In this document: piece by piece, positions 11,411 through 44,958 of the stretch | Position numbering within the stretch: the first letter of the stretch is position 1 | Layout: each line of letters opens with the position of its first letter | Origin: a virus | Lineage: Duplodnaviria; Caudoviricetes | Virus record (IMG/VR): IMGVR_UViG_3300006175_000012 | Coordinates: 1,304-65,303 of that record | Length of the DNA stretch: 64,000 nt | Strand: one strand, 5' to 3' | Translations under genes and position numbers: made by a program | The notes under the pieces: generated by a model | What the model was told of the DNA's origin: nothing | The model's input: only the letters and a program-made list of their open reading frames with translations | The model's database searches: none

Positions 11411-12430
11411 ATGGCACTGAGCCTGATCCTCGAAGTCCTCGATCATGCGCCCGACTCGCTCACCCCGAAGGAGCATCTGGCGGCGATTGTGCTCGCCGAG
11501 AACGCCAACGAGCGCACCCGGCAGATCTGGGACAGCATCGAAGACCCGAAGATCATGGCGCGCATCCGAGTGAAGCGCGCCAGGCTCTACGAACTGATCG
11601 AAGGACTGATCGAGAAGGGCGTCCTAGAGCAGACGGCGGTTGGCCAGAAGCAGACTCGCGCCCGCTACCGGTTCCGCGTGCTGTGCCCAGCCCAGTGTCC
11701 GGAACACCCGGACACTGAAGCCAAGGTCAGTGTCCGGGAATCCCGGAACCTGAACAATGCTCAGCGTCCGGAAGACCCGGACGTCAGTGTCCATGGTTTC
11801 CGGACCCCTACTCCCTCCTTGCTCGTTAATAAACCTCCTCCACCCCCCGCAGCGGACACGGACACGAGCGGGGCGCAAGAGGCGGCGGCGGGGGGTGGCT
11901 GCGCCGAACAAGAACCCAACCCCGACGCGGACACCGTCATCGACAAGCTCGACCTGCAACGCCAACCAGGCCGCAGCGAACGAGCCCAACTCCTCGCCCC
12001 CATCACCGCCGCGCTCGCCGCTGGTTGGAGCGTGCCCGACCTGATCGCGACGCTCGACCGCGACTGGACCGGCGCCAACGACCGCGTACGCACCGCCATC
12101 TACCGCGCCAAAGACCTCGGAGCGCCGCGGACCAAAACCAGCGGCGCCCAGGGGGGTTTCGCCATGCCCCCGCATTGCGGCACCTGCCACCCGCAAACCC
12201 GAATGCTTGAGGACCCCGAGACACGCGCCCCGCTCGCCCGCTGCCCCCGCTGCCACCCGGCCGCCACGGAAGAGCCCCGCCAGCGCCCGTCCGCGACGGC
12301 CAGAGCGCTCGCCCAAGCGGACGCGGCCGGGGAGGAAGCCAAGCGCATCATCGCCGCGGCGCGAACCGGCACCCACCAGCCCTACCGGAACCCGGACGAC
12401 CCGTCCGTTTACTTCGAGCCGATCTCGTGA
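11411..12430 (+). CDS. Replication initiator-like wHTH protein (copy 1) with internal iterons
   Basis: N-terminus MALSLILEVLDHAPDSLTPKEHLAAIVLAENAN; CxxC..CxxC near C-terminus; internal DNA repeats; paralogue of 12969-14156. Confidence 0.6.
   Translation: MALSLILEVLDHAPDSLTPKEHLAAIVLAENANERTRQIWDSIEDPKIMARIRVKRARLYELIEGLIEKGVLEQTAVGQKQTRARYRFRVLCPAQCPEHPDTEAKVSVRESRNLNNAQRPEDPDVSVHGFRTPTPSLLVNKPPPPPAADTDTSGAQEAAAGGGCAEQEPNPDADTVIDKLDLQRQPGRSERAQLLAPITAALAAGWSVPDLIATLDRDWTGANDRVRTAIYRAKDLGAPRTKTSGAQGGFAMPPHCGTCHPQTRMLEDPETRAPLARCPRCHPAATEEPRQRPSATARALAQADAAGEEAKRIIAAARTGTHQPYRNPDDPSVYFEPIS
11693..11807. repeat. Four iteron-like quasi-palindromes (T)CAGYGTCCRK...CCGGA
   Basis: Copies start at 11693, 11727, 11761 and 11784 inside the initiator-like gene. 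Confidence 0.75.
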
Positions 12431-16687: not shown

Positions 16688-16922
16688 AGCGGCGACCGGA
16701 AGGCAGAAGCCCCGGCGCACCTGCTGAGGTGCCACCGGGGCCTGTGCTGCCGGGATCTGATGTGCCTAGGAACATCCCGACCGTAGCACGGCGCTCAGCG
16801 GACGCCGCGCGGCTGGCCAAGTCGTTTTTGCGTTCCACGCAAATGAGTACATTGGTAGCGGGCCGCGCAATCGAGGACGCGGCGGTGCGGCGGCAGTGCA
16901 GTCCCGGCGAGGGGCAGGTGTC

Positions 16923-17603
16923 ATGGCGGTCGTGGTCGAACGCTGGACCGGGCAGCGCGCCTGCCTGCTGCAAGCCGCGCTGCGCGCCACCAACGAGTCC
17001 TTCGCGCACAGCCTCGGGGTCGCGGTGCGCACGGTGGCCGCGTGGCACGCCGAGCCCGCGCTCGTCCCGCGCGCCGAGGTGCAGCAGATCCTCGACACCG
17101 CCCTGGAACAAGCCCCGGCGGCCGCCGTGCAGCGCTTCACGGCCTCGCTGTTCGGCCCCCTGTCCTACGAGCCCCCTGCGGCGGCCGCCGGCCCACAGGC
17201 CCTCACGGTCGCCGTCGCGGTCGTGCGGCATGAAGACGATGTGCTGCTGGTGTGCCGGCGCGGCGGCGAGCGCAGCGGGCTGCGCTGGCAGTTCCCGTCC
17301 GGGATCGTCAAGCCCGGCGCCGACCCGGCTGCGGTCGCGGTCAGCGAAACCCTCGCCGAGACCGGCGTGCACGCCGCCGTCCGCGAGAATCTGGGCCGCC
17401 GCGTGCACCCGCTCACGGGCGTCGTGTGCGAATACCTGCTGTGCGACTACCTGACTGGGCAGGCGCGCAACGCCGACACGCTGGAGAACCTGGACGTGGC
17501 GTGGGCGCCGATCGCTACGCTGGCGAAGTTCATCCCCCTGGAAGCCGTCTACCCGCCGATCCTTGACGCACTGGAGGCCGAGCGTGACCCAGCCGGAGAC
17601 TGA
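16923..17603 (+). CDS. XRE-like HTH fused to a Nudix hydrolase
   Basis: N-terminal ESFAHSLGVAVRTVAAW; degenerate Nudix box WQFPSGIVKPGADPAAVAVSETLAETGV. Confidence 0.8.
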   Translation: MAVVVERWTGQRACLLQAALRATNESFAHSLGVAVRTVAAWHAEPALVPRAEVQQILDTALEQAPAAAVQRFTASLFGPLSYEPPAAAAGPQALTVAVAVVRHEDDVLLVCRRGGERSGLRWQFPSGIVKPGADPAAVAVSETLAETGVHAAVRENLGRRVHPLTGVVCEYLLCDYLTGQARNADTLENLDVAWAPIATLAKFIPLEAVYPPILDALEAERDPAGD

Positions 17604-18015
17604 GCCGACCAGCGCGCTGGCAGGCAGGCCGCCGATCGCCGCCGCCGTCATCGTCAAAGACGGACGCGTGCTGCTCGTGCGGCGCCGCGTCGCGGAGGGC
17701 TCGCTGTCGTGGCAGTTCCCGGCCGGCGCGATCGAGCCGGGGGAGAGTGCGCAGGACGCGGCGGTGCGCGAGGCACGCGAGGAAACCGGCCTGGACGTCG
17801 AGGCCGAGGCGCTGCTGGGGGAGCGCGTGCATCCGGCGACCGGGCGGCTGATGGCGTACGTCGCGTGCGAGGTCGTCGGCGGCCAGGTCAAGGTAGGCGA
17901 CCCGGAGGAGATCGACGCAGTTACCTGGGCGCCGCGCGACCAGCTCGCCGAACTCGTACCGTATGGGTTCTTCGCCCCGGTGCAGACGTACCTGGACGAC
18001 GCGCTGGCACGCTGA
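17584..18015 (+). CDS. Nudix hydrolase (MutT/Pif-like)
   Basis: Canonical Nudix box GAIEPGESAQDAAVREAREETGL. Confidence 0.92.
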   Translation: MTQPETEPTSALAGRPPIAAAVIVKDGRVLLVRRRVAEGSLSWQFPAGAIEPGESAQDAAVREAREETGLDVEAEALLGERVHPATGRLMAYVACEVVGGQVKVGDPEEIDAVTWAPRDQLAELVPYGFFAPVQTYLDDALAR

Positions 18016-18024
18016 GCCTTCCCG

Positions 18025-18300
18025 TCACGGCCTCTCGACGAGCTGCGCGAGCAGCGGATACCCCGCCGCCCGCAACGCCCCCGCCGGATCACGGCGCAAC
18101 ACCAACGCCACCATCACCGCCGCCTCCGCGGCCGGCACCCCGCCACCGAACACCCACCGCGACACCTCCGCGGCCGGCACCCGGTCACGCAGCGCCTCCA
18201 TCACACCCGCGGGCGCCACACCCGCGCGGCGCATCGCGTCCTCGAACCAGGACCGCCACACCGTCATGCGGTGCCTGTTGTCGATCGGGGGCTTCCTCAT
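18025..18300 (-). CDS. Single-domain HTH protein, paralogue of the repressor repeats at 62529-63260
   Basis: WRSWF..EVSRW..VALVL..GALRAAGY aligns with WSAWL..TLSQW..VADLL..DALRAAGH. Confidence 0.6.
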   Translation of the reverse strand: MRKPPIDNRHRMTVWRSWFEDAMRRAGVAPAGVMEALRDRVPAAEVSRWVFGGGVPAAEAAVMVALVLRRDPAGALRAAGYPLLAQLVERP

Positions 18301-18387
18301 GCGGCAAGGATCCGGCCGCCGCGGCGGCCCTCGCGCGGCTTCACCGACCCGCGACACTCGATCGGGCGAACAAACGCCCAGCGCGCC

Positions 18388-18857
18388 ACCATGCCTGCCG
18401 CGCCCTGCCTTGCGGTGCCGTAACGAGCCGAACCTAACCTCGCCTGCCATGCCGAGCCCGGACATGCCGAGCCGAAACGGGCCATAACGCATCGCGCCAA
18501 GCCACGCCTGCCACGCTGTCCGCGCCGTGCCCCGCCTAGCCGGGACACACCAAACCCCGCCCTGACTGCCATGCCCTGCCTAGCCGCTCCCTGCCGCACC
18601 GGGCCCGTCCGTGACGCGCGGAGCCATGCCTGCCGTGCCACACCTGGCGATACCTCGCCTAGCCACGCCTGCCAAGACCTGCCATACAGGGACCTACCGT
18701 GCCGAACCCCGACAACCCAAGCCGTGCCTGCCGTGCCCTACCTAGCCACGCCTAACCGGGCCGGACCGGAACTAGCCTGGCCCTGCCGGACCTGCCAGGA
18801 CATGCCCCGCCTCGCCGCGCCTCGCCTCGACGCGCCTATCCATACCACGCCTGCCAT
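18388..18857 (-). ncRNA. GGY-NN pentamer array, 8 units separated by GGCAGGC; putative guide-RNA array (vrRNA-like)
   Basis: Separators (plus strand GCCTGCC or one-mismatch variant) start at 18849, 18790, 18726, 18667, 18628, 18564, 18506, 18442, 18393; spacings 59, 64, 59, 39, 64, 58, 64, 49 (5n+4, one unit 1 nt short); begins a few nt after the upstream stop codon. Confidence 0.85.
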
Positions 18858-18862
18858 GAGCG

Positions 18863-19285
18863 CTAAGCCGCCACATCCTCGCGCACCATGTCCAGGAACT
18901 CCTGAAACTCCTGATACCGCCGGTACAGCGCCTTCCACTCCCGCTCCATCGCCTGCAACACCAGTTGGCGGCGGAACGGATCGTCTCGCACTTCCTCGGC
19001 CGGGTCGAACACATGCCCGTCCCCGGACGCCGCGGCCACGAACGCCCGCACCGAACGCGCCGGCCCCGACTCGTCGGCTTCCCTGTAGACCAGCCGGACA
19101 CTGCGGATCAGCTCCCCGGCCTGGTGCAGCCGGTACGCCTCCCCGGCCACCGCGTCGTCCCACTCGAACCGCGAGTGCAGCGGATGCCCGGGGTCGCGGG
19201 CCGTGTCCACCACGGCCTTCTTCGACAGGACACCGTCGTACTGCTTGCGGATCTCCAGCAACTCGGAACGCAGGTCGGTGCTCAC
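18863..19285 (-). CDS. 140-aa accessory protein coupled to the Cas7-like gene
   Basis: GTG start overlaps the upstream TGA; VVDTARDPGHPLHSRFEWDDAVAGEAYRLHQAGELIRSV, a phage-type hypothetical. Confidence 0.75.
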   Translation of the reverse strand: MSTDLRSELLEIRKQYDGVLSKKAVVDTARDPGHPLHSRFEWDDAVAGEAYRLHQAGELIRSVRLVYREADESGPARSVRAFVAAASGDGHVFDPAEEVRDDPFRRQLVLQAMEREWKALYRRYQEFQEFLDMVREDVAA

Positions 19286-19917
19286 GCCGCCACCAGTTCC
19301 CGCGTGCCGCGCACCACGTCCACCGGGCGCTTCGGGTCCAGGATGTAGGTGCCGAAGTCCCCGTCCTTCTCCGGCCGCCACTCGCCGACACCGACGCCCG
19401 TGCCGCCCGCCTCGATGAGCGAAAGCACCGAATCCTGCGTGAGCGCCGAGGTCACGTAGGTGACTTCCAGCGTCGCCGTCCACGGCAGGAACTGCGGCCG
19501 GTAGCGCAGATCCGAGCCGTTGCGCCCGACCGTGACCACGTCCTCGCGCATCTTCGGCTCCCCGACGATGCGCACCAGCCCGCGCCCGTCCGAGCCGATC
19601 TCGCCGCGGAAGAACATGTACTGCTTGAGCGCGGTCATCGTGACGGCGGAGAAGAACCTGGCGCCGCTGACCGTGGCGGCCTTGAAAGCGAGCGCGGGAA
19701 AGCCGTAGCCGCCGTCTTCGAGGCGGTAGAACGCGGCCTCGTATTCGGCTTCGGGGTTCTTGTTCTGCTTGGGCGACTTGCGGCCCTGCATGTTGTCCAG
19801 CATCTGGCGCTTGGCCTTCTCGCTGAACTTGTGGACGATCAGCGGCGCCGTTCCCGCGATGGGAACGAGGATCGTCTCGGTGCCGATCCGGCTGATGTTG
19901 ATGGTGGCGTCGGCCAT
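19282..19917 (-). CDS. Stand-alone Cas7/RAMP-like protein (Vipr-like), 211 aa
   Basis: RAMP hallmarks in order: first strand I.GTAPLIVH, YGFPALAFKAA (the P.ss.KG helix), LRYRPQF..W, and G-rich loop GVGVGEWRPEKDGDFGTY; no other cas genes nearby. Confidence 0.75.
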   Translation of the reverse strand: MADATINISRIGTETILVPIAGTAPLIVHKFSEKAKRQMLDNMQGRKSPKQNKNPEAEYEAAFYRLEDGGYGFPALAFKAATVSGARFFSAVTMTALKQYMFFRGEIGSDGRGLVRIVGEPKMREDVVTVGRNGSDLRYRPQFLPWTATLEVTYVTSALTQDSVLSLIEAGGTGVGVGEWRPEKDGDFGTYILDPKRPVDVVRGTRELVAA

Positions 19918-19959
19918 GGCTGTCCCCTTGGGAATGTGGAGGGTCTGTTTCAGCCGCTC

Positions 19960-20082
19960 CATGCCACGAACCGTGTGAGCAGTATAGGAGATACAGTGCG
20001 AACGTACGCAAGAAACCGGCGGCGGCAGTGCGTAGCGTGCGGTTACATGCCACGAATCGACTTGCTTGTCACTGCCGCCGCC
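19960..20082. promoter_or_regulatory. Divergent promoter region of the Cas7-like operon
   Basis: Minus-strand -10 TATACT at 19981-19986; direct repeat CATGCCACGAA at 19960 and 20046; 13-bp inverted repeat 20018-20030/20070-20082. Confidence 0.55.
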
Positions 20083-20096
20083 TGGTCGGTTAAGCC

Positions 20097-20666
20097 ATGA
20101 CTGAACCCGCCGCCCCGCACCTGGTCGTGCGCCAGCTCGCCCTGCCGCCCGTGCGCGACCCGGACCGGGCCAGCGACCTGCTCGCCGACTACCTGCACGA
20201 CCACCCGCACGTCACCGACCCGGACATCGCCGCCAGCCTCGCCACCGGGCAGATCGACGTGCAGCTGACCGTTCACGCGCCGGACCGGGAAGCGGCCGAG
20301 GCGCGAGCCGACCAGGTCCTGCGCGACGCCCTCGTGCACGCCGTCATGACGAGCGCGGCCGAAGCGATCCGTGACGAACGCACCTACCGGCCGATCGGCC
20401 ACAAGACACCGGCAGGGCCGGTCGCCGAGGACGCGGCGATGTCTAGTTCAAGGCCACAAGCGGACGCCGGAACGTCTACTTCAACTCGACATGCCGACGA
20501 CCTTCACGCGCGGATCGCCCGCGTCCTGCGCGAGCACGAGCCACCAACGCACGTCGACCGGGACGGCCTGCCGCCGGACGAGTTCGACTGCTGCGCCGAC
20601 GCGGTCATGGCCGTCGTCGAGCCCGCGATCCGAGCCGCACAGCGCGGCGAGGACGCCGAGCGGTGA
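20097..20666 (+). CDS. Hypothetical protein
   Basis: 189-aa ORF with plausible codon usage. Confidence 0.5.
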   Translation: MTEPAAPHLVVRQLALPPVRDPDRASDLLADYLHDHPHVTDPDIAASLATGQIDVQLTVHAPDREAAEARADQVLRDALVHAVMTSAAEAIRDERTYRPIGHKTPAGPVAEDAAMSSSRPQADAGTSTSTRHADDLHARIARVLREHEPPTHVDRDGLPPDEFDCCADAVMAVVEPAIRAAQRGEDAER

Positions 20667-20671
20667 GCGCG

Positions 20672-21553
20672 TCAGCACTTCTCCCATCCGTCAATACCCG
20701 AGCACACCTGCGCGCTGGCTATGTTGTACCCGCCGTCAGCCGAGCCGTTGTTCGACACGGTCTGCGCGTACCCCAGCAGGTCATCCGTCTGCACCGTCGT
20801 CGTGCAGGACACCGACCCGCCGCCCTGCAACTGCGCCGTGGTCACGTAGTACTGCGCGCCTGGGTCCAGCTTGTCGACGTGCGTGAACGGCAGACTCGAC
20901 GCGGAATGCTCCGACCCGTTCGCACCGTAGGTGATGTCCACCCCACCGTCCCCCGCGCAATGGAACGTGACCTGCTCCGGCGCCGGAGTAGCAGCCGGGG
21001 TCGGCGACGGTGCGTCACGCGGCAGCGCCACCGAACCCCCGAGGATCCGCTGCGCGGCCTGCGCGTACGTGCCGCTCGTGGTCGTCAGCACCCAGTTCAC
21101 GCCCGCCAGGGCCGTGGTGTCCGCCGGAATCCCGTAGAACGGCGCGACCACGGCCCCGGCCGCGTACGTCTGCGCGGCACCCTGAGTCTTGAACACCGCG
21201 ATCTGCGTGTCCTGGCTCGCGCCGTCCGGACTGGAGCACTGCACCGCGTCCGTCGCGCCCGAGTAATCCGACAGGCCCGGCGTGTCGCCGGGGGAGCACT
21301 GCTGCCCGGCTGTAGCGAGCGCGTACTCGATCTCGCCGGCGTTGCCGTAACTGCCCCCGTCGACCGGAGCAGCGGACACGGACGGGCTGGGCACCTCGGG
21401 CGGCGCGTAGCTGTAGTTGTCGGCGGCCGGGTCGGTGGTTTGGACCGGCCGCGGCGAGGCGCCGGACGCGGCCTGGTTTGCCGGCGAGCAGCCGACCGCA
21501 GCGACGAGCGCGAGCCCCGCGACCACGATGGACGTGCCGGAACGACGGCGCAT
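20672..21553 (-). CDS. Lipoprotein with MmpS-like C-terminal domain
   Basis: Signal peptide MRRR..LALVAAVG-C; C-terminal VDITYG..SLPF..GSVSCT.. Confidence 0.7.
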   Translation of the reverse strand: MRRRSGTSIVVAGLALVAAVGCSPANQAASGASPRPVQTTDPAADNYSYAPPEVPSPSVSAAPVDGGSYGNAGEIEYALATAGQQCSPGDTPGLSDYSGATDAVQCSSPDGASQDTQIAVFKTQGAAQTYAAGAVVAPFYGIPADTTALAGVNWVLTTTSGTYAQAAQRILGGSVALPRDAPSPTPAATPAPEQVTFHCAGDGGVDITYGANGSEHSASSLPFTHVDKLDPGAQYYVTTAQLQGGGSVSCTTTVQTDDLLGYAQTVSNNGSADGGYNIASAQVCSGIDGWEKC

Positions 21554-21726
21554 GATCCCCCCACTGTTCGAGTACTGACAGGCCGCCACGCTACGCCCGG
21601 AGCGCGCGGCACGGACCGGCGCAACCGGACCGCGACCGGATCGAGACGAACCCGACGCGGCCGGGCCGAAAGGCATCGCGTGACACCCACGAACACGCCA
21701 CCATCAGACGAACACCGGAGGAACCT

Positions 21727-22503
21727 GTGACCGACTCGACAAGCCTCGGCGATCGCATGAAAGCCTACGAGGCGCCCTGGAAACTTACCTTCCCCCGCCG
21801 CCTGCCGCTCGTGATCCGGGTCGACGGCCGGGCGTTCCACAGCTACCTGCGCGGCGCCGCGAAACCGTTCGACATGCCGTTCGTCGAGGACATGGCCGAA
21901 GTCGCCAAGACGCTGTGCGCTGAGATCTCCGGCGCGGTGTTCGCCTACCATCAGAGCGACGAGATCAGCGTCCTCGTGCAGGACTGGGCGTCCACCACCA
22001 CCGAACCCTGGTTCGCAGGCGAACTCCAGAAGATCGTGTCGATCTCCGCCGCCATCGCCACCAGCGCCCTGACTTCACGCCGAGGCGGCCGACCCCTGTT
22101 CGACGCCCGCGCATTCGTGCTGCCCAACCCCGTCGAAGTCGCCAACTACTACCAATGGCGGCAGCGCGACGCCGTGCGCAACTCGATCAGCATGGCCGCG
22201 CAGGCACACTTCAGCCACAAACGGCTACAGGGCGTCAGCGGCGAGCAGATGCAGGAATGGCTGTTCCAGGAGAAGGGCGTGAACTGGAACGACTACCCCG
22301 CCGAGTGTCGACGCGGGCAGGTCGCGGTGAAACGCTCGGGGGAGCGCGAAGTCACCTACACCGACAAGCGGACGAAAACCGAGTGCACGACGCTCGCGCT
22401 GCGCTCGTGGTGGGACGTGGAGCCCGCACCCCGGTTCACCGCGGAGCCGGGCGGGTTCCTCGCCGAGACTATCCCGAGCATGCCCGCGCTGGCCGCCGCA
22501 TGA
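21727..22503 (+). CDS. tRNA(His) guanylyltransferase Thg1-like protein (3'-5' polymerase)
   Basis: RVDGRAFH, QSDEIS, FDARAF, WRQRDAVRNSI, GVNWNDYP motifs. Confidence 0.92.
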   Translation: MTDSTSLGDRMKAYEAPWKLTFPRRLPLVIRVDGRAFHSYLRGAAKPFDMPFVEDMAEVAKTLCAEISGAVFAYHQSDEISVLVQDWASTTTEPWFAGELQKIVSISAAIATSALTSRRGGRPLFDARAFVLPNPVEVANYYQWRQRDAVRNSISMAAQAHFSHKRLQGVSGEQMQEWLFQEKGVNWNDYPAECRRGQVAVKRSGEREVTYTDKRTKTECTTLALRSWWDVEPAPRFTAEPGGFLAETIPSMPALAAA

Positions 22504-23216
22504 CCGCATCCGAGGAGTCCGACATGCGTATCCTGCTGGCCGGCGTCGTCGGAAGCACGGCCTACGGCCTGGCCGGCCCCGACTCGGACATCGACCGGCT
22601 CGGCGTGTTCACCTGGCCCACCACCCGGTACATGGGCCTGACCCCACCCACCGACTCCATCGTCACCACCAAACCCGACGTCACCTACCACGAAGCCGCC
22701 AAAGCCTGCCGCCTGATCCTCGGCGGCAACCCCACTGCGACCGAACTGCTGTGGCTCGAAACCTGGGAGATCAAAACACCGCTCGGCGACGAACTGGTCG
22801 GACTGCGCTCCGCGTTCCTCTCCGCCAAACGCACCCGCGACGCCTACCTCGGGTACGCCACCCAGCAGTTCCGCAAGCTCCTGTCCCGCGACGGCAAATC
22901 CTTCGGCTCCGACATTCCCGAGCGGCGCACCGCCAAGCACGCACGCCACCTGATGCGCCTGTGCGACCAGGGCTACGAGCTGTACACCACCGGGCGCCTG
23001 CGCATCCGCCTCACGGACCCGCAACGCTACCTCGACTTCGGCGAACAGGTCGCCGCCGACCCGCAGTCCGTGATCCCGTTCATGGCCGCCGCCGAACAGC
23101 GGTTCAACGACGCCAAGACGGTCCTGCCCGACGAGCCCCAGACCAGTGTCGTCGAGGGCTGGCTGCACCGGGTACGCCGCGCCTACTACGAGAGCGATGG
23201 GGAGCCGCGCCGATGA
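22500..23216 (+). CDS. DNA pol beta-superfamily nucleotidyltransferase (RlaP/Nuc-transf-like)
   Basis: GSTAYGL..DSDIDRLGVF; GNP..ELLW; K.A.HL.RL. Confidence 0.85.
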   Translation: MTASEESDMRILLAGVVGSTAYGLAGPDSDIDRLGVFTWPTTRYMGLTPPTDSIVTTKPDVTYHEAAKACRLILGGNPTATELLWLETWEIKTPLGDELVGLRSAFLSAKRTRDAYLGYATQQFRKLLSRDGKSFGSDIPERRTAKHARHLMRLCDQGYELYTTGRLRIRLTDPQRYLDFGEQVAADPQSVIPFMAAAEQRFNDAKTVLPDEPQTSVVEGWLHRVRRAYYESDGEPRR

Positions 23217-23716
23217 AACCCGAGGCGATCATCGCGGACATGGACGGCACACTGTGCGACGTGAGCGGCATCCGCCACCTGCTGCTCGGCCCCGGCAGCT
23301 ACGACGCGTTCCACCGCGCGAGCATCGACTGCCCCCCACACCAATGGGTCGTCGACGCCGTCACAGCCGAACACGCCGCCGGGCGCGCCGTCCTGGTCGT
23401 CACCGCCCGCTCGGCCCGCTACCGCGACATCACCGCGATGTGGCTCGCCCTGCACGGCGTCCCCTCGGCGTCGATGTTCATGCGCGCCGACAAGGACAGC
23501 CGCCCGGACCGCGAGGTGAAAGCCGAGATCCTGGCGAAGATCCGGCAGCGGTGGACGGTCGTGCACGCGTGGGACGACCGGCCGGAGATCGTCGAGTTAT
23601 GGGAATCCGAAGGGATCCCGGTCACGGTCGTTCCCGGCTGGGTCGAGACGGTGTCGTTTCCGCCCGACTCGCCCGCGGCTGCCAGTATCGACGCGACACC
23701 CCGGAGGAACCCGTGA
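23213..23716 (+). CDS. HAD phosphatase of the polynucleotide kinase 3'-phosphatase type
   Basis: DMDGTL, VTAR, MRADKDSRPDREVK, WDDRPEIVELW. Confidence 0.85.
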   Translation: MKPEAIIADMDGTLCDVSGIRHLLLGPGSYDAFHRASIDCPPHQWVVDAVTAEHAAGRAVLVVTARSARYRDITAMWLALHGVPSASMFMRADKDSRPDREVKAEILAKIRQRWTVVHAWDDRPEIVELWESEGIPVTVVPGWVETVSFPPDSPAAASIDATPRRNP

Positions 23717-26503
23717 ACGACACCGAACCCCGCGACTTCCCGCTATCCGACATCCTGTCCGTCACCACCGGCCGGCTCCTGTCCCGCGACGGCATCGACG
23801 GGGTGTACCGAATCCTGTCCCACCTCACCGGCGACCAGATCATGATCGAGCCGCAGATCCCGCGCGCCCTCGACGCCTGCCAACCGCAAGTGCTCGCGCA
23901 GCATCCGCAGCTGCTCGGCGTCACCCCGCGCACGAACGCCGAGATCGAGCACATCGGCACGTGGCTCGACGAGCAGGAGACCCGGTTCGGGGCGTCGCTC
24001 CCGGTCGCCCCGATCGACGGCTGGGAGCGACGCAACCCGATCGTGGAGCTCGCCGAGAGACTCGGGCCGGAGCGCGTCGTTCCGGTTGTGCTGCCGTGAC
24101 CGCCGCAGGGAATCCGCCGCGCTGCGAGACCTGCGGCAAACGCGTCCGGCCCTGGCAGCGCTATGACGGCGTCGGACCGCTCGGCTTCACCCGCAGGACC
24201 GCCGCCATGCTCTGGCACTCGAAGTGCGGCCTGGAGCGCCCCGCGTGACCGGCACGCACGTGATCTCCGTGCGCGTCCCCGCCGACCTCGCGACGGCCGC
24301 CAACAACCACGCCGAGCGCACCGGGCGGCGCCTGTCCGACGTCGTGCGCGACGCCCTGGCCGCGCACCTCGCGCCTACCGCCGTGACCCTCACCGTCACC
24401 TGCGGCGACCGCATCCGGGCCGAGCCACACACCGGGCGCCCGCTCACCTGCAACAGCAACCCGATCGTGCCCGAGACCCTGCACCTGGTCCTGCCGTGAC
24501 CGCCCGCGCTGTGGGCGCGGCTTGCGAGAATGGCACTGTGGCCGACAACCCCAACACCCTCGAACCCCGCGAACTCGTGGAACTCTTCGTCGCCCAGGCA
24601 ACCGCACTACGCGACCAGGAGCCCGGCGTCAGCGCGCAAGACGTCGCCGAACTCGCCCGCACCGTCACACGCCGCCAGCCCAGCTACCAGCCTTGGGGGC
24701 ACACGGAACGCTGCCCCGAAGAACCCATGACCGACCTGATGCGGCAGACGATGAACGGCGACGGGTTCCACGCGACCACCGCCGGCCGGATCCGCGCTGC
24801 CGCCGCGGCCGAGCCGTCCCGTCATTCGCTGTTCGACCGGCTGGCCATGCGCGGACTCGCGCCGCTGCCGCGGGAGTTGCCCGAGGATGACGGGGCGCAC
24901 GTGCTGCTGTACGACGTCAAACGCAACACCGTGCTGACCGCATTGGCGCAGCGAGACGATGCGGGAATTGAGCGGGATGTTCAGCGGCTGCTGCGCGACG
25001 TGGACCGCGACCGGCGCAGCTACGAGAACGAACAGTGGTACCTGGCCAGGGACTACTGACCGATGGGACGCATTTCATGTGCGGGGCGCCGAAAGAGTCT
25101 TGAGGGGCTGCGAGGGATCGCGGGCGCGCTGGCCCGCGCTGTGGGTGCGTCCGGTGAGGATAGGAACATGACTGATGAACACGACAATGCTGCACAGTAC
25201 CTGCGGCTAGTCGAAGCGCACCGGGATGCGGTCATCGCGGAAGGCCACGCCGCAGACGCACTCGAAGCAGCGCAAGCAAGCGGAGACGCTTCGGCGGTAG
25301 CGGCGGCCCAGGGTGCGTACAACCAGGCGGCCGCGCGTGCCGAGTCCGCAGAGGCACAGTGGTCGGCCGGGTACGACGCGGAACTCGCGCGACTGGATGG
25401 GGCGCAGGAGCGCCTGCCGTGACGCTCAAGGCCCGCGTCCCGCACGAACCGGGCGCCGTGTTTGTCGGCAAGCGCCCCCGCTGCGCGCACTGCGGTCGGC
25501 GTGTCGCCCGCAGTGCGCGCTCCGCGATCCTGCACGCCGACGGCACCACACCGCGACGACGATGACGACTGAGCCCGCCTGGTTCGGCGACCCTGGCGCC
25601 GTCCACGAACCCGGTGTCGAACCGGCTGGCACAGGCTGGCGTCCCGTGTGCTCCTGCGGGTTCTCCGCGCCCCTGACGCACGACACGAAGCACGGGGCGC
25701 TGCGGGCCGCGCAGACCCACGCCGCGGTATCGAGCGCGCTGCCAACGGGCCGGTACAGTGCCGTGCTCGACGGCGACACCGTGCACATCCGCTGCGACGC
25801 ACACCCCGACGAGCCTTTGGCCAGCTTCCCCGGCAGTCTCGACGGGCGCGAAACCGAGGCGCTCGACGCGATACGCGCCCACGAGCGCGACTACCACGAC
25901 GATGAGCACGCGCACCCGGAAGGCGGCTGACATGCCGACCCACCAGTTCAACCTCGTCTACGCCGACCACAACATCGCACCCGGGCACGCGGCGGCGTTC
26001 TGCGACGAACTGATCGAGGAACTGCTCGACCACCAGCCGACCGTCGAATGGCAACGCGTCACCGACCTGGGCGGCGGCCGGTTCTACGCCGCGCTGCGCG
26101 TGCCCGGCGACGAGCGGGAAGCCGCCGCGGTGCTGGGGAGGGCCATGGGGAACGCGCGGGCGAGACTGCGAAGCGCGGCGCGATGACTAAGCCGCCGACG
26201 TACGCAGACCTGCTCGCCCAGCTCGAAGGCCTGATGGCCGACGTGCCCCCGCTGCCGCGCGAGGTCGCCGTGAGCGGCCAGGCCACGCTGGACGCACTGA
26301 TCGCGGGCATGCCCGCAGCCGAACCGGGCGCGCCGTGGCTCAACCCGCTCGGCAACCTGCTCTCGATCCCGGTCCGCCTTGACGACACGCTGCCGCCCGA
26401 CCAGGTCCATATCCGCGAGCACGACGGCCGCGTGAGCGCCGCCTGGCAGCTCATTGACGGGGGCCGGTGGATCAGCCTGCCGGTCGTCGGCTGGCCGTCG
26501 TAG
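23713..26503 (+). other. Run of small coupled hypothetical ORFs, including a ribbon-helix-helix protein at 24245-24499
   Basis: Overlapping starts/stops; RHH pattern VISVRVPADL..GRRLSDVVRDAL. Confidence 0.6.
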
Positions 26504-43282: not shown

Positions 43283-44623
43283 TCAGCTCTCTGCCATATC
43301 TACGAAGCGAGCGTAGTGACCTTGGAACGCGACGGTGATCGTTGCCGTGGGGCCGTTACGATGCTTCGCGACGATCAGGTCCGCCTCGCCAGCGCGCGGA
43401 GATTCGCGCTCGTAGGCGTCCTCACGGTGAATCAGGATAATGACATCGGCGTCCTGCTCCAATGACCCGGACTCGCGCAGGTCGGACGCCATCGGGCGCT
43501 TGTCCGCACGCTGCTCCGGGCCGCGGTTGAGCTGTGCGATCAAAACGACCGGGATGTTCAGCTCCTTCGCCAGCAGCTTCGAACCGCGGGAGATCTCCGA
43601 TACCTCGGTCTGCCGGTTCTCGTGCCTGCGCGTGCTACCGGAGCTCAACAGCTGCGCGTAGTCCACGACGATCAGCCGCACGCCGTGCTTCTGCACCATG
43701 CGCCGGGCCTTGGTGCGGATACGCATCATCGTCAGGTCGGGGGCGTCGTCGATGAACACCGGCGCGGTGACGATGCGCTCGCGCACCCGCGCCGCCCGCG
43801 CCCAGTCGTCCTCCGTCATCCGCCCCGGGGCGAGGTGGTGCAGGTTGATGCCGCCCTCGGCGGACAGTCCGCGCCGGATCAACTCCTCGCGGTTCATCTC
43901 CAGGGAGAACATCCCGGACGGGACGCGGTCCCTGATCGAGATGTTCCGAAGAAAATCCAGTCCAAGGGTTGATTTACCCAGGGATGGCCTGGCCGCGATG
44001 ATGATCAGCTGCCCGGGTTGCAGACCGCCCGTCAGGTCGTCCAGGTCCCGGAACCCGGTCGCCACGCCCAGCGGCACACCCTTGTCGATCTTGTCAAGCA
44101 GTCCGTCGAACACCTCCGCGTTCGACGGATCCTCTACGCGGCTCCCGTGCTCGCCCAGCGCGTTCGCCTCCGCCTGCGCCCGGTCCACGATCAGCGCCAG
44201 ATCCGCCGGATCATCCGTCGCGTAGCCCATCGCGACGATCCGCGTACCCGCCTCGATCATTCGGCGGCGCACCGCGTGCGCACGCACGATCTCGGCGTAG
44301 TGTCCGGCGCTGCCCGGCGTGACCACCGACCCCATCAGGGTGTGCAGGTACGGCGCCCCGCCGATCCGCTTCAGCTCCCCGCGCCGCTCCAGCTCGTGCG
44401 CCGTGGTCACCGCGTCCGGCCGAGCGCCGTCGGCGTGCACCTTGAGGACCGCGAGGAAGATCTTCTCGTGGGCCGGTGCGTAGAAATCCGAGGAATCGAG
44501 CAACTCCGCCACCTCGTCGATGGCGTGCTTCGAGAGCAGCATCGCCCCCAGCACCGCGCGCTCCGCGTCCGCGTCGTGCGGCAGCGCCCGGCCATGCACC
44601 TCGTCGTCGCTCCAGTCGTTCAC
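43283..44623 (-). CDS. dnaB: Replicative DNA helicase
   Basis: AERAVLG, AARPSLGKST, SLEM, VVDYAQL, AQLNRGPEQRADKRP.SDLRESGSLEQDAD, KHRNGP. Confidence 0.96.
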   Translation of the reverse strand: MNDWSDDEVHGRALPHDADAERAVLGAMLLSKHAIDEVAELLDSSDFYAPAHEKIFLAVLKVHADGARPDAVTTAHELERRGELKRIGGAPYLHTLMGSVVTPGSAGHYAEIVRAHAVRRRMIEAGTRIVAMGYATDDPADLALIVDRAQAEANALGEHGSRVEDPSNAEVFDGLLDKIDKGVPLGVATGFRDLDDLTGGLQPGQLIIIAARPSLGKSTLGLDFLRNISIRDRVPSGMFSLEMNREELIRRGLSAEGGINLHHLAPGRMTEDDWARAARVRERIVTAPVFIDDAPDLTMMRIRTKARRMVQKHGVRLIVVDYAQLLSSGSTRRHENRQTEVSEISRGSKLLAKELNIPVVLIAQLNRGPEQRADKRPMASDLRESGSLEQDADVIILIHREDAYERESPRAGEADLIVAKHRNGPTATITVAFQGHYARFVDMAES

Positions 44624-44958
44624 GCGCCGGCCTTCCGGTTCAGGGGGTGACAGTTCGGGCAGCGCACCAGCGGTTTGCGGGTCTCCGGATCCTCAAGCCA
44701 CCAGGTGCGCTCGTTGCACCGGCCACACCACGTCGCGGCGGGCAACTGCCGGCGGCTCTCCAACACCCGGCGGCGAATCAGCGCCGGAGTCAGCCACGTG
44801 TTCTCCTCGCGCAAGTGCTCCCGCGCCGCGAACGTCGCGTCCGCGAGCGACACGTCGTCGAGCAGATCCGCGAACGCCTCCGCGTCGTCCTGGCCCCAGG
44901 TGCGGTGATCCACGCGGGCGATGTACGTGAGCAGCACCCCGGCCTCGATGCGGTTCAC
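44620..44958 (-). CDS. Putative helicase loader/inhibitor (G39P-like)
   Basis: Sits between initiator and dnaB; D.R..AF..LL.D..A..A..H..W.TPA pattern. Confidence 0.55.
   Translation of the reverse strand: MNRIEAGVLLTYIARVDHRTWGQDDAEAFADLLDDVSLADATFAAREHLREENTWLTPALIRRRVLESRRQLPAATWCGRCNERTWWLEDPETRKPLVRCPNCHPLNRKAGA

What the first reader, a model, noticed from the sequence alone, without database searches (positions are those of the whole stretch)
18393..18855. Array decodes into 8 discrete guide-like units with distinct NN strings
Seen, minus strand 5'->3', NN between GGCAGGC separators. U1 GT AT TA GC GA GA GC GA GG AT CT. U2 CC AG CA TA CC CC CC TA GT TA AG AC. U3 AC TT TT GG TC AC AG CC AT AG TT. 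U4 GT TA GA AT CA GT AC. U5 AT TC GC AC CG CC GC AG GC TA AG AT. U6 AG GG TT GT CC TA GG AC GC (AC) GT, 1 nt short. U7 GT TT GC GC AT CC TC TC AT CG TC AT. U8 GA TA TC TC AC AC AA AG GC. The scaffold is conserved (occasional GTC/GTT/GGA/CGC variants) while NN strings are all different and richer in A/T than the surrounding DNA, which is not how a slippage microsatellite behaves. Inference: the 4-nt phase break GGCA is a processing or boundary signal, and each unit holds 14-24 nt of target information.
Basis: partly seen in the sequence, partly recalled or inferred. Interest (0 to 1): 0.9.

Follow-up and report, generated by a model that had tools for sequence, protein, structure and literature searches.

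The report
Phage VIPR staggered guide-RNA array
This five-base-rhythm stretch is the guide-RNA array of a VIPR system, a phage relative of CRISPR first described in 2026 preprints, so it is one more member of a known family; one of its eight guides seems aimed at the system's own promoter.

Summary
Window 18396-18855 (minus strand) is a run of 84 GGY-NN pentamers.

It is not a new kind of element. It is the "staggered" vrRNA array of a VIPR system (bioRxiv 10.64898/2026.04.26.720920). This scan has already met such arrays on other DNA at least eight times.

- The upstream gene (19282-19917) is a Vipr protein. A profile of it hits PDB 36pp, "SUSP1 Vipr protein", at E 2.4e-14, and its model has a Cas7/Csm3 fold.
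- A coupled accessory gene, vap, follows at 18863-19285.
- Of 115 loci carrying this vipr, 105 have such arrays on the vipr strand. GGCAGGC is the usual junction.
- I found no credible natural target and no RNA cover of the array, so guide function here rests on homology.

One point goes beyond the papers I read. The core of unit U4 (GT-TA-GA-AT-CA) is the only guide content shared by the six closest loci. It matches, under the one-base-skip rule, a site on the -10 region of each locus's own vipr promoter, and only the skipped bases vary there.

Verdict: new member of a known kind, modest interest.

The parts
20006..20011 (-). Putative -35 (TTGCGT) of the vipr operon promoter
   Evidence: Read by eye. 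TTGC(A/G)(T/C) is present in 4 of the 6 aligned loci, 19 nt upstream of the -10-like hexamer. The consensus promoter scan found 0 sites in 17900-20300; its spacer limit is 16-18 nt. This part is an inference only.
19981..19986 (-). Putative -10 (TATACT; TAyACT in relatives)
   Evidence: This hexamer is an invariant block except for its third base in the six-locus alignment. Promoter function is inferred.
19982..19995 (+). Candidate target site of unit U4 under the 1-nt skip rule (GTaTAgGAgATaCA)
   Evidence: It is the only match to the U4 core pattern in the 64-kb window, against 0.01 expected from shuffles. The same motif occurs once in each of the 6 closest loci, 62-71 nt upstream of the vipr start, and in 0 of the other 109 loci. 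All 10 NN positions are invariant, and 3 of the 4 skip positions vary.
19963..19975 (-). Conserved box CACGGTTCGTGGC between the -10 and the vipr start (unknown role: operator or 5' leader)
   Evidence: Nearly invariant in the six-locus alignment.
19282..19917 (-). vipr: Vipr protein, a Cas7-like RAMP of 211 aa from the conserved ATG at 19917. The ATG at 19962 is not conserved.
   Evidence: - PHROG 4652, E 1.7e-40.
- phmmer against PDB 36pp_D, 'SUSP1 Vipr protein', E 3e-4.
- A 32-sequence profile against the same chain gives E 2.4e-14 over nearly the full length.
- The AlphaFold2 model has pLDDT 86.9, and its best Foldseek hits are Csm3/Cas7 chains at E about 1e-5.
- The start codon is taken from the alignments.
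18863..19285 (-). vap: accessory protein of 140 aa. Its GTG start overlaps the vipr stop (GTGA).
   Evidence: - The junction was read.
- PHROG 15946, E 2.2e-30.
- No Pfam family above cut-off and no PDB relative.
- A homologue lies downstream of vipr in 101 of 115 loci, counting the window.
- The Atlas shows only viral hypothetical-protein clusters.
18793..18855 (-). Leading GGCA junction (18855-18852) and unit U1 (11 NN plus terminal GGCA)
   Evidence: Parse.
18729..18792 (-). Unit U2 (12 NN plus GGCA)
   Evidence: Parse.
18670..18728 (-). Unit U3 (11 NN plus GGCA)
   Evidence: Parse.
18631..18669 (-). Unit U4 (7 NN plus GGCA). It is the only unit whose core is conserved in relatives.
   Evidence: Parse. 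The 4-NN windows GT-TA-GA-AT and TA-GA-AT-CA are present in 6 of the 6 closest loci. They are the only windows the window's array shares with any of them: 2 of 63 windows with each.
18567..18630 (-). Unit U5 (12 NN plus GGCA)
   Evidence: Parse.
18509..18566 (-). Unit U6 (9 NN, an irregular 4-nt unit GGAC, 1 more NN, then GGCA)
   Evidence: Parse.
18445..18508 (-). Unit U7 (12 NN plus GGCA)
   Evidence: Parse.
18396..18444 (-). Unit U8 (9 NN plus GGCA), followed by a 2-3 unit remnant down to about 18384
   Evidence: Parse. The 105 nt after the array fold no better than shuffles (z 0.72), so no structured tail is evident.

Best explanation
The stretch is the vrRNA (guide RNA) array of a VIPR system carried by a 65-kb high-G+C virus.

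**Locus layout (shown).** The operon on the minus strand is: promoter, vipr (a Cas7-like RAMP), vap (translationally coupled), then the array.

**Mechanism (inferred by homology to the SUSP1 system).**
- The array is transcribed with the genes.
- Vipr protomers polymerise along the RNA, one per pentamer. They clamp each GGY and expose each NN.
- The exposed dinucleotides pair with double-stranded DNA that reads NNxNNx, with one base skipped per unit.
- Binding silences transcription of the bound DNA, typically in competing mobile elements.

**Unit boundaries.** In this staggered form there is no spacer or tail between guides. A 4-nt unit (GGCA, then GG) shifts the pentamer register by -1. I infer that this ends one filament or guide and starts the next, giving eight guides of 7-12 informative dinucleotides.

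**Sub-claim, about 50% likely.** Unit U4 is a conserved guide directed at the -10 region of the vipr promoter. It would act on the phage's own promoter (negative feedback) and/or on the promoters of closely related rival phages.
For: **The protein is a Vipr.**
- The gene product alone hits PDB 36pp_D, 'SUSP1 Vipr protein', at E 3e-4.
- A profile of 32 relatives hits the same chain at E 2.4e-14, covering residues 2-190 of its 202.
- The residues that the cryo-EM paper (section 5) names as holding the GGY align as follows, in 226-aa ORF numbering: H17 with H44, R138 with R155, D177 with E194, W178 with W195, R179 with R196. All are invariant or nearly so in the 32-sequence alignment.
- The model has pLDDT 86.9. 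Its best solved-structure matches are Csm3/Cas7 chains of type III and VII CRISPR complexes, with E about 1e-5 and TM about 0.5.

**The array has the vrRNA signature.**
- The GGY scaffold has low entropy and NN has near-maximal entropy.
- It lies on the vipr strand, directly after vap.

**The family shows the same features.**
- Chains of at least 6 GG at 5-nt steps number 608 on the vipr strand, in 105 of 115 loci. The opposite strand has 5 chains in 5 loci.
- The commonest junction is a 4-nt step (189 cases). Of these, 154 read GGCAGGC and 18 read GGCAGGT.
- Median chain length is 10 units, within the 9-16 repeats reported for vrRNAs.
- A vap homologue follows vipr in 101 of 115 loci.

**The NN content is hypervariable.** The window shares only 2 of its 63 four-NN windows with each of its five closest relatives, whose Vipr is 76-87% identical.

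**Context.**
- The record is a virus record.
- There is no CRISPR-like array in the window.
- No guide matches its own genome at 80% of NN or more. The paper reports the same for its systems.

**U4 sub-claim.**
- The core motif occurs once in the window, against 0.01 expected.
- It occurs once in each of the 6 closest loci, at the same place upstream of vipr, and in 0 of the other 109.
- Variation in the site is confined to skip positions. By my own arithmetic, the chance that 3 variable columns all fall on the 4 skip columns out of 14 is 4/364 = 0.011.
- A systematic test of own arrays against own upstream regions gave 7 of 105 loci at skip 1, against a permuted mean of 1.3 (maximum 4), and 1-2 loci at skips 0, 2 and 3.
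Against: **No direct evidence of function at this locus.**
- Contigs of an RNA library and two DNA libraries cover parts of vipr and vap but none covers the array. Transcription, processing and unit length are therefore unshown.
- No credible natural target was found for any of the eight guides.
- Guides of 114 related loci (400 guides) do not hit this genome clearly more than shuffled guides do. At a match fraction of 0.80 or more, 16 did at skip 1, 14 at skip 2, 7 at skip 0, and 6 for shuffles.
- 23 of 84 scaffolds depart from GGY.
- D177 of SUSP1 is E here.
- The consensus scan finds no promoter or terminator in 17900-20300.

**Against the U4 sub-claim.**
- Only 5 of U4's 7 NN match its own site: 10 of 14 bases, below the 80% threshold the papers use.
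- The sixth NN (AC) is conserved in 4 relatives but does not match their sites.
- Exact 5-NN matches are not rare in themselves. The 51 five-NN windows of this array have 10 such matches in the 64-kb window at skip 1 and 10 at skip 2.
- The six loci are one clade, so this is essentially one evolutionary observation. The seventh locus (L106) is a G-rich match, probably chance.
- Part of the site is a -10-like hexamer, which would be conserved anyway.
Confidence: 0.9

Rival explanations
1. Sub-claim rival. U4 is conserved because it targets a conserved sequence outside these phages (a shared rival element or a host gene), or because that piece of the array has another role such as an internal signal or small hairpin. 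On this view the partial match to the vipr promoter is a coincidence or a tolerated sub-threshold self-match.
For: - Only 10 of 14 bases match U4's own site.
- The sixth NN (AC) is conserved in 4 of 6 loci without matching their sites.
- The conserved segment also keeps a scaffold deviation (CGC before CA) in all six loci. That suggests the whole segment is conserved, not just NN.
- Ten other exact 5-NN matches exist in the window.
- The papers report that guides avoid self-targeting at 80% or more.
Against: - The site sits at the same promoter position in all six loci.
- The site varies only at skip bases.
- The motif is absent from the other 109 loci.
- The motif has a single match in the window, against 0.01 expected.
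- Targeting of rival vipr genes by vrRNAs is reported in print (paper 3, section 8).
Confidence: 0.4
2. The array is a decaying relic: a VIPR locus no longer used, whose units no longer load or guide.
For: - 23 of 84 scaffolds are not GGY.
- U6 has an irregular break.
- No targets were found (see Tried and rejected).
Against: - vipr and vap are intact, coupled open frames with the invariant family residues.
- All eight regular junctions are intact GGCA|GG.
- Relatives with similar degeneracy keep long arrays.
Confidence: 0.05
3. The repeats act as double-stranded DNA: an array of binding sites (iterons, a partition or packaging site) for a phage protein, with no RNA guide role.
For: The array is a long, regular, non-coding repeat in a mobile element. 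I held this as a possibility before finding the literature.
Against: - The repeats are strictly strand-specific relative to vipr in the family: 608 chains against 5.
- The variable half of each unit is hypervariable between close relatives. Binding sites for one protein would not behave this way.
- A 5-bp period does not follow the DNA helix.
- The neighbouring protein is homologous to an RNA-binding Vipr solved with its RNA.
Confidence: 0.02
4. The stretch is a slippage microsatellite or a compositional or coding artefact.
For: Tandem Repeats Finder reports short period-5, -10 and -15 pieces. Open frames cross the region on both strands in this high-G+C DNA.
Against: - Two of the five positions are near maximum entropy, with 15 of 16 dinucleotides used.
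- No frame with coding-like G+C by codon position lies between 18015 and 19282.
- A period of 5 is not a multiple of 3.
- The same architecture recurs beside the same gene across phyla.
Confidence: 0.01

Closest known systems
VIPR systems with staggered vrRNA arrays (bioRxiv 10.64898/2026.04.26.720920; Results and fig. S18 legend read, figure and supplementary data not seen)
   Same: - A Vipr RAMP gene, a vap gene and GGY/NN pentamer repeats on the same strand.
- The units abut with a one-base overlap or register shift, and no spacer, tail or ribozyme lies between them.
- The locus is virus-borne.
- No guide matches its own genome at 80% or more.
   Different: - I cannot assign the type (I-VII). 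That rests on a tree and data files I could not see.
- The paper states that only the ribozyme and single-vrRNA architectures were confirmed by small-RNA sequencing, so the staggered form is itself unverified.
- This locus adds a guide core conserved among relatives that matches their own vipr promoters. I did not find that described.
Type II VIPR of Escherichia phage SUSP1 (PDB 36pp; bioRxiv 10.64898/2026.04.26.720927, sections 5 and 6 read)
   Same: - The Vipr proteins are homologous (profile E 2.4e-14).
- The GGY-clamping residues are conserved.
- The pentamer repeat and guide length are similar: 12 repeats in the solved complex, 8-13 units here.
   Different: - SUSP1 vrRNAs are separate transcripts of about 100 nt, each ending in an invariant 3' tail with a pseudoknot. 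Here there is no tail between or after units.
- D177 is E here.
- The vap has no detectable similarity to anything solved.
- The host range differs: this record has 70% G+C and its closest genome-borne relative is in an actinomycete.
Class 1 CRISPR-Cas backbone proteins (Cas7/Csm3) on crRNA
   Same: - The fold is the same: Foldseek top hits are 6xn3_F, 8z4j_J and 6ifn_E.
- One protomer binds per repeat unit of RNA, and a thumb breaks the guide-target duplex periodically (paper text).
   Different: - The period is 5 nt, with three bases sequestered and two read, instead of 6 nt with one flipped.
- The window has no CRISPR repeats, no other cas genes and no adaptation genes.
- The guide content is hard-wired between GGY triplets rather than held in spacers.
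vrRNAs that target rival VIPR loci (bioRxiv 10.64898/2026.10.15.759431, section 8 read)
   Same: A guide is directed at the vipr operon of related phages. Match to self is sometimes lower than to a rival: the window's U4 matches 10 of 14 bases on its own site and 12 of 14 on L037's, and L036's guide matches 10 of 16 on its own site and 13 of 16 on the window's.
   Different: - The published cases map inside the vipr coding sequence or on vrRNA tails, in enterobacterial phages, and often come from phages that have lost vipr.
- Here the site is the promoter -10 region, the guide sits in a vipr-positive array, and it also matches its own promoter core.

Membership tests
VIPR system | Vipr protein: a minimal RAMP with an RRM core, a glycine-rich loop and a thumb | tested here: met
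   - The AlphaFold2 model has pLDDT 86.9, with a beta-alpha core and a long beta-hairpin at 136-158.
- Foldseek top hits are Csm3/Cas7 chains, E about 1e-5.
- The loop GxGEWRPE is invariant in 32 sequences.
VIPR system | Sequence homology to an experimentally characterised Vipr, including the residues that hold GGY | tested here: met
   - PDB 36pp_D, 'SUSP1 Vipr protein': E 3e-4 for the single sequence and E 2.4e-14 for the profile.
- H17, R138, W178 and R179 are conserved. D177 is replaced by E.
- The residue roles come from the cryo-EM preprint, section 5.
VIPR system | Tandem YNNGG / GGYNN repeats (at least 4 units) beside vipr on the same strand | tested here: met
   There are 84 pentamers in 8 units directly downstream of vap on the vipr strand. 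The same holds in 105 of 115 related loci.
VIPR system | Conserved GGY with hypervariable NN among related systems | tested here: met
   Position entropies are 0.41, 0.71 and 1.09 bits against 1.95 and 1.92 bits. Only 2 of 63 four-NN windows are shared with each of the five closest loci.
VIPR system | Minimal locus with a vipr-accessory (vap) gene, and no CRISPR array or other cas genes | tested here: met
   - vap is coupled to vipr by a GTGA overlap and is present in 101 of 115 loci.
- The neighbours are NUDIX, HTH, GntR, AAA_25 and Thg1-like genes.
- Tandem Repeats Finder finds no CRISPR-like array in the window.
- Not every gene in the window was scanned for cas families.
VIPR system | Viral or proviral location (typical, not obligatory) | tested here: met
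   The tools describe the source as a virus record of 65,303 bases. Relatives of the gene were found in 172 stretches of viral contigs.
VIPR system | The array is transcribed, processed into unit-length vrRNAs, and bound by Vipr | not testable with these tools
   Four public runs were laid on the locus and none covers the array. Contigs from one RNA library cover parts of vipr and vap only, which does not show transcription.
VIPR system | Guides match natural DNA targets under the 1-nt skip rule better than under other skips or shuffles | tested here: inconclusive
   - There is no excess in the own genome, in 748 kb of related loci, or for relatives' guides against this genome.
- Exact-core scans of viral and metagenome contigs gave only hits that look like chance.
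- In 151 actinomycete genomes, U5 gave 2 hits with 3 mismatches, in unrelated membrane proteins.
- The only structured signal is the match of the U4 core to the vipr promoter.
VIPR type II (SUSP1-like) architecture | Each vrRNA ends in an invariant structured 3' tail (a pseudoknot) | tested here: not met
   - Units abut at GGCA|GG with nothing between them.
- The sequence after the array folds no better than shuffles (z 0.72).
- Rfam gave no hit in the region.

The locus is therefore filed under the staggered architecture, not the SUSP1-like one.
CRISPR-Cas class 1 | A repeat-spacer array with cas gene set; 6-nt periodic Cas7 binding | tested here: not met
   - There is no repeat-spacer array in the window.
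- No cas families were found among the 17 neighbouring proteins scanned.
- The array period is 5 nt.

The most novel reading that the evidence does not exclude
U4 may be a selected 'housekeeping' guide. All other guide content in this clade has turned over, yet its five-dinucleotide core is kept in all six related phages. It reads the -10 region of the vipr promoter, and the site carries the signature of the code itself: every paired base is invariant and only skipped bases drift. If so, VIPR operons in this clade are wired for RNA-guided negative feedback on their own expression, for silencing the VIPR operons of sibling phages during co-infection or superinfection, or for both. The five matched dinucleotides plus mismatched flanks would set the strength of binding. 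I found no mention of promoter-directed or autoregulatory vrRNAs. The words 'autoregul', 'feedback', 'own promoter', 'vipr promoter' and 'upstream of vipr' gave no relevant passage in the two preprints searched for them. Supplementary target tables were not visible to me.
Probability: 0.45. Interest if true: 0.55.

Novelty: new member of a known kind. Interest (0 to 1): 0.3.

Why it matters
The class is already in print, so the find does not open a new field.

- **Range.** The locus adds a clean, compact example of the staggered array form, with eight guides, in a high-G+C virus whose nearest genome-borne relative is in an actinomycete. The only tested systems come from enterobacterial and Pseudomonas phages.
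- **Junction rule.** The comparative data give a family-wide rule, GGCA followed by GGY. This is a concrete, testable hypothesis for how tail-less arrays are divided into guides. The discovery paper did not verify that architecture by RNA sequencing.
- **Promoter pair.** If real, the U4-promoter pair would be a small natural system for measuring how many matched dinucleotides VIPR needs to bind. It would also show whether VIPR loci regulate themselves or each other.

Tried and rejected
**First idea.** I first thought of a TRAP-like ring or filament platform of 11-12 triplets per unit. I dropped it once the literature and the Vipr homology were in hand.

**Target hunts that gave nothing usable**
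- Own 65-kb genome: the best 1-skip scores were 16 of 22 and 17 of 24, no better than skips 0 and 2.
- 748 kb of related loci: no unit beat its shuffles. The best case was U7, where 8 of 40 shuffles did as well.
- U7 with up to 3 mismatches in the five closest viral records: 0 of 5.
- U2 with up to 3 mismatches in four genomes that carry relatives: 0 of 4.
- Exact cores in viral contigs:

| Unit | Specified bases | Result |
|---|---|---|
| U2 | 20 | 2 hits with the same sequence, 40-42% G+C |
| U5 | 20 | 0 |
| U7 | 20 | 0 |
| U3 | 20 | 0 |
| U1 | 20 | 0 |
| U6 | 18 | 1 hit, 56% G+C |
| U8 | 18 | 2 hits with the same sequence, 37-38% G+C |

  The flanks did not extend the matches, and low-G+C contigs are implausible partners for a 70% G+C virus.
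- U7 core in metagenome contigs: 6 hits, 5 of them distinct. The best is L120 (67% G+C, 22 of 24 bases), at a contig end beside an HTH gene. One such flank match among five is about what chance gives.
- 400 guides from 114 related loci against this genome: no clear excess.
- U5 with up to 3 mismatches in 151 actinomycete genomes: 2 hits against 0 for the reversed control. They lie in a P-type ATPase and an unrelated membrane protein, so I read them as chance.

**Host hunt.** A 20-kb piece of the window against 401 genomes of one class matched only through the dnaB-like gene (390 of 401). No taxon labels were shown, so no host was inferred.

**RNA evidence.** No run covers the array. 'No cover' says nothing either way.

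**Other negative results**
- Single-sequence structure prediction failed (pLDDT 32) and was replaced by the alignment-based model.
- The tail after the array has no significant fold.
- INPHARED phages hold no near match to 17000-24000.
- vap has no family, solved relative or Atlas name.
- Self-promoter targeting is not general. Outside the six-locus clade only L106 scored, through a G-rich window.

**Supplements I could not see.** They cover type assignment, the list of 664 loci and the natural-target tables. They may already hold this clade or a promoter-directed guide.
Full report
**1. What is in the sequence**

Read on the minus strand, 18396-18855 is a run of five-base units with G, G and a pyrimidine in the first three places and anything in the last two.
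- Identity at lag 5 is 0.50, against 0.21-0.32 at lags 1-4. The stretch holds 59 GGC, and their phase slips back by one base every 50-60 nt.
- A dynamic-programming parse gives 84 pentamers, eight 4-nt GGCA units and one 4-nt GGAC unit.
- Position entropies are 0.41, 0.71 and 1.09 bits for the scaffold and 1.95 and 1.92 bits for the two variable places.
- 15 of the 16 dinucleotides are used. The variable places are 50% G+C in a window of 70.4%.
- GG-to-GG at lag 5 occurs 52 times, against 18.8 +/- 4.4 in 1000 shuffles. No other part of the window comes near this.
- Tandem Repeats Finder sees only weak short pieces. No frame with coding-like composition crosses the region. Rfam has nothing there.

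**2. The genes beside it**

Two genes lie upstream on the same strand.

*Gene at 19282-19917.*
- It has no Pfam family but belongs to PHROG 4652.
- Alone it hits one solved protein, PDB 36pp chain D, "SUSP1 Vipr protein", at E 3e-4 over the glycine-rich loop.
- A profile built from 32 relatives hits the same chain at E 2.4e-14 over almost its whole length.
- Folded with that alignment, the protein gives a confident model (pLDDT 86.9). A single-sequence attempt had failed.
- The nearest solved folds are Csm3/Cas7 backbone subunits of type III and VII CRISPR complexes.
- The conserved start is the ATG at 19917. The upstream ATG at 19962 is not kept in relatives.

*Gene at 18863-19285.*
- It starts with a GTG that overlaps the first gene's stop.
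- It belongs to PHROG 15946 and has no Pfam, solved or named relative.
- It follows the first gene in 101 of 115 loci.

The tools call the source a virus record of 65,303 bases.

**3. What the literature says**

A library search found three 2026 preprints from one laboratory and a fourth, separate preprint that recovers the same arrays.

- *Discovery paper* (10.64898/2026.04.26.720920). I read the Results, Methods sections 18, 20, 26 and 27, and passages.
  - VIPR systems consist of a Vipr protein that is a minimal RAMP, an accessory vap gene, and vrRNAs of 9-16 YNNGG repeats with conserved GGY and hypervariable NN.
  - The guides recognise double-stranded DNA that reads NN-x-NN-x, and binding represses transcription.
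  - The systems are mostly viral and their natural targets are competing mobile elements.
  - The paper lists "staggered arrays with overlapping vrRNAs". The legend of fig. S18 says individual vrRNAs derive from positions overlapping by 1 nt, the end of one marking the start of the next.
  - Only the ribozyme and single-guide architectures were confirmed by small-RNA sequencing.
- *Cryo-EM paper* (10.64898/2026.04.26.720927, sections 5 and 6 read). One protomer binds per repeat. H17, D177, R138, W178 and R179 hold the GGY, and the target's skipped base is flipped out.

In my alignments these residues correspond to H44, E194, R155, W195 and R196 of the 226-aa frame. All are invariant or nearly so in the family.

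**4. Membership, tested on relatives**

The gene has 34 relatives in one-genome-per-species contigs, from actinomycetes, alphaproteobacteria and clostridia among others. It has 172 relatives in viral contigs, of which 80 were kept.
- Across the 115 loci, chains of at least six GG at 5-nt steps number 608 on the gene's strand, in 105 loci. The other strand has 5 chains in 5 loci.
- Between successive chains the commonest step is 4 nt (189 cases). Of these, 154 read GGCAGGC and 18 read GGCAGGT. Such junctions occur in 78 loci.
- Median chain length is 10 units.
- The five closest loci (Vipr 76-87% identical) have the same architecture, with every unit ending GGCA.
- Their variable dinucleotides are almost wholly different. 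The window shares 2 of its 63 four-dinucleotide windows with each of them.
- There is no CRISPR-like array in the window.

The locus is therefore a VIPR system with a staggered array. It is not the SUSP1-like form: there is no invariant tail between or after units. I cannot name its type (I-VII), because that rests on figures and data files I could not open.

**5. How it most likely works**

*Shown here:* the operon layout, the homology and fold of Vipr, the repeat statistics, the strand rule, the junction rule, and the turnover of NN.

*Inferred from the tested SUSP1 and P. fulva systems:* the array is transcribed with the genes. Vipr polymerises along it, one protomer per pentamer, and the exposed dinucleotides read DNA with one base skipped per unit. 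Bound DNA is silenced.

*Inferred from the anatomy:* the 4-nt unit shifts the register by one base, so a filament cannot run across it. This would divide the transcript into eight guides of 7-12 dinucleotides (14-24 informative bases).

Nothing here shows the RNAs themselves. Of four public runs laid on the locus, none covers the array. Contigs from one soil-type RNA library cover only parts of the two genes, which does not prove transcription.

**6. Targets**

- No guide matches its own genome at 80% of NN or more. The paper reports the same for its systems.
- There is no excess over shuffles or other gap sizes in 748 kb of related loci.
- Guides of relatives show no clear excess against this genome.
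- Scans of viral contigs with exact 18-20-base cores of seven units gave 0-2 hits each. All were in 37-56% G+C contigs and none extended into the flanks.
- One metagenome scan for U7 gave five distinct hits. The best, at 22 of 24 bases, is no more than chance allows.
- U5 in 151 actinomycete genomes gave two 3-mismatch hits in unrelated membrane proteins.

The natural targets remain unknown. These searches were narrow, so this is not evidence against guide function.

**7. The one structured signal: U4 and the vipr promoter**

A first-stage note on this window (e1-6245345) had pointed out that U4 matches a site upstream of the gene. I tested it.

*For the link*
- The U4 core, GT-TA-GA-AT-CA, is the only guide content shared by the six closest loci.
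- The gapped motif occurs once in the 64-kb window, at 19982-19995, against 0.01 expected.
- It occurs exactly once in each of the six loci, always on the strand opposite vipr and 62-71 nt before its start. It occurs in none of the other 109 loci.
- The site overlaps a -10-like TAyACT, with a TTGCrT 19 nt upstream.
- Across the six loci the ten paired positions never vary, while three of the four skipped positions do. By my arithmetic, the chance of three variable columns all falling on the four skip columns of fourteen is 0.011.
- The variation breaks the site's apparent palindrome in several loci, which argues against a simple dimer operator.
- A systematic test of own arrays against own upstream regions scored 7 of 105 loci at skip 1. 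The permuted mean was 1.3 (maximum 4), and skips 0, 2 and 3 scored 1-2 loci.

*Against the link*
- Only five of U4's seven dinucleotides match.
- The sixth (AC) is conserved in four relatives without matching their sites.
- Exact five-dinucleotide matches are common in themselves: 10 in the window at skip 1 and 10 at skip 2.
- The six loci are one clade. The seventh scorer is a G-rich match, probably chance.
- The consensus promoter scan found nothing in this region.

*Context*
- Some guides match a relative's site better than their own. The window's U4 scores 12 of 14 on L037 against 10 of 14 on its own site. L036's guide scores 13 of 16 on the window against 10 of 16 on its own.
- The third preprint (10.64898/2026.10.15.759431, section 8 read) reports guides against rivals' vipr genes, with lower self-match.
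- I found no mention of promoter-directed or autoregulatory guides. The supplements were not visible.

I put this sub-claim at about one in two.

**8. Verdict**

This scan has already reported staggered VIPR arrays on other DNA at least eight times. The locus is a new member of a known kind. Its value is as a compact actinomycete-type example, as comparative support for GGCA|GGY as the unit boundary, and for the conserved promoter-matching guide, which is a cheap and decisive thing to test.

Noticed in passing
window 19959-19975 (minus strand): A 17-nt box, CACGGTTCGTGGCGCGG, lies between the -10-like hexamer and the vipr start. In the window it reads ...GGCATGG. It is nearly invariant in the six related loci while its surroundings vary. 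It contains the inverted repeat CACG-GTT-CGTG, so it could be an operator or a leader hairpin.
   Followed up: no
window 18536-18549 (unit U6, minus strand): The middle of U6 reads GT-CC-TA-GG-AC. With one base skipped per unit, this string is its own reverse complement. Its target would be a gapped palindrome, as an operator might be (read).
   Followed up: no
window 18025-18300 (minus strand): A small gene directly after the array gives weak PHROG hits to transcriptional regulators or repressors (E about 2e-4). I did not examine whether it belongs to the VIPR operon.
   Followed up: no
window 16896-18015 (plus strand): Two adjacent NUDIX-domain genes converge on the VIPR operon. Their Pfam PF00293 E-values are 1.6e-11 and 4.8e-24.
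   Followed up: no
window 21556-22503 (plus strand): A Thg1-like gene (tRNA-His guanylyltransferase family; PF04446 at E 4.9e-22, plus the Thg1 C-terminal domain). A first-stage note proposes that it heads an RNA end-repair trio.
   Followed up: no
window 43283-44692 (minus strand): A dnaB-like helicase gene of the virus is 66-77% identical at DNA level to a chromosomal gene in 390 of 401 genomes sampled from one bacterial class. This swamped my attempt to find the host.
   Followed up: partly
window 11689-11781: The only strong tandem repeat in the window is a 35-nt unit in 2.7 copies. It lies inside the region a first-stage note calls initiator-like genes with internal iterons.
   Followed up: no
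L001 3463-3906, L031 3417-3875, L014 938-1211 and others: In several relatives, pentamer arrays also lie upstream of vipr, and some chains reach 18-24 units. The window has an array only downstream.
   Followed up: partly
L020-L029 (clostridial relatives): In these loci the array begins within about 100 nt of the vipr stop, and the vap-like match lies after part of the array or is weak. Gene order thus differs within the family.
   Followed up: no
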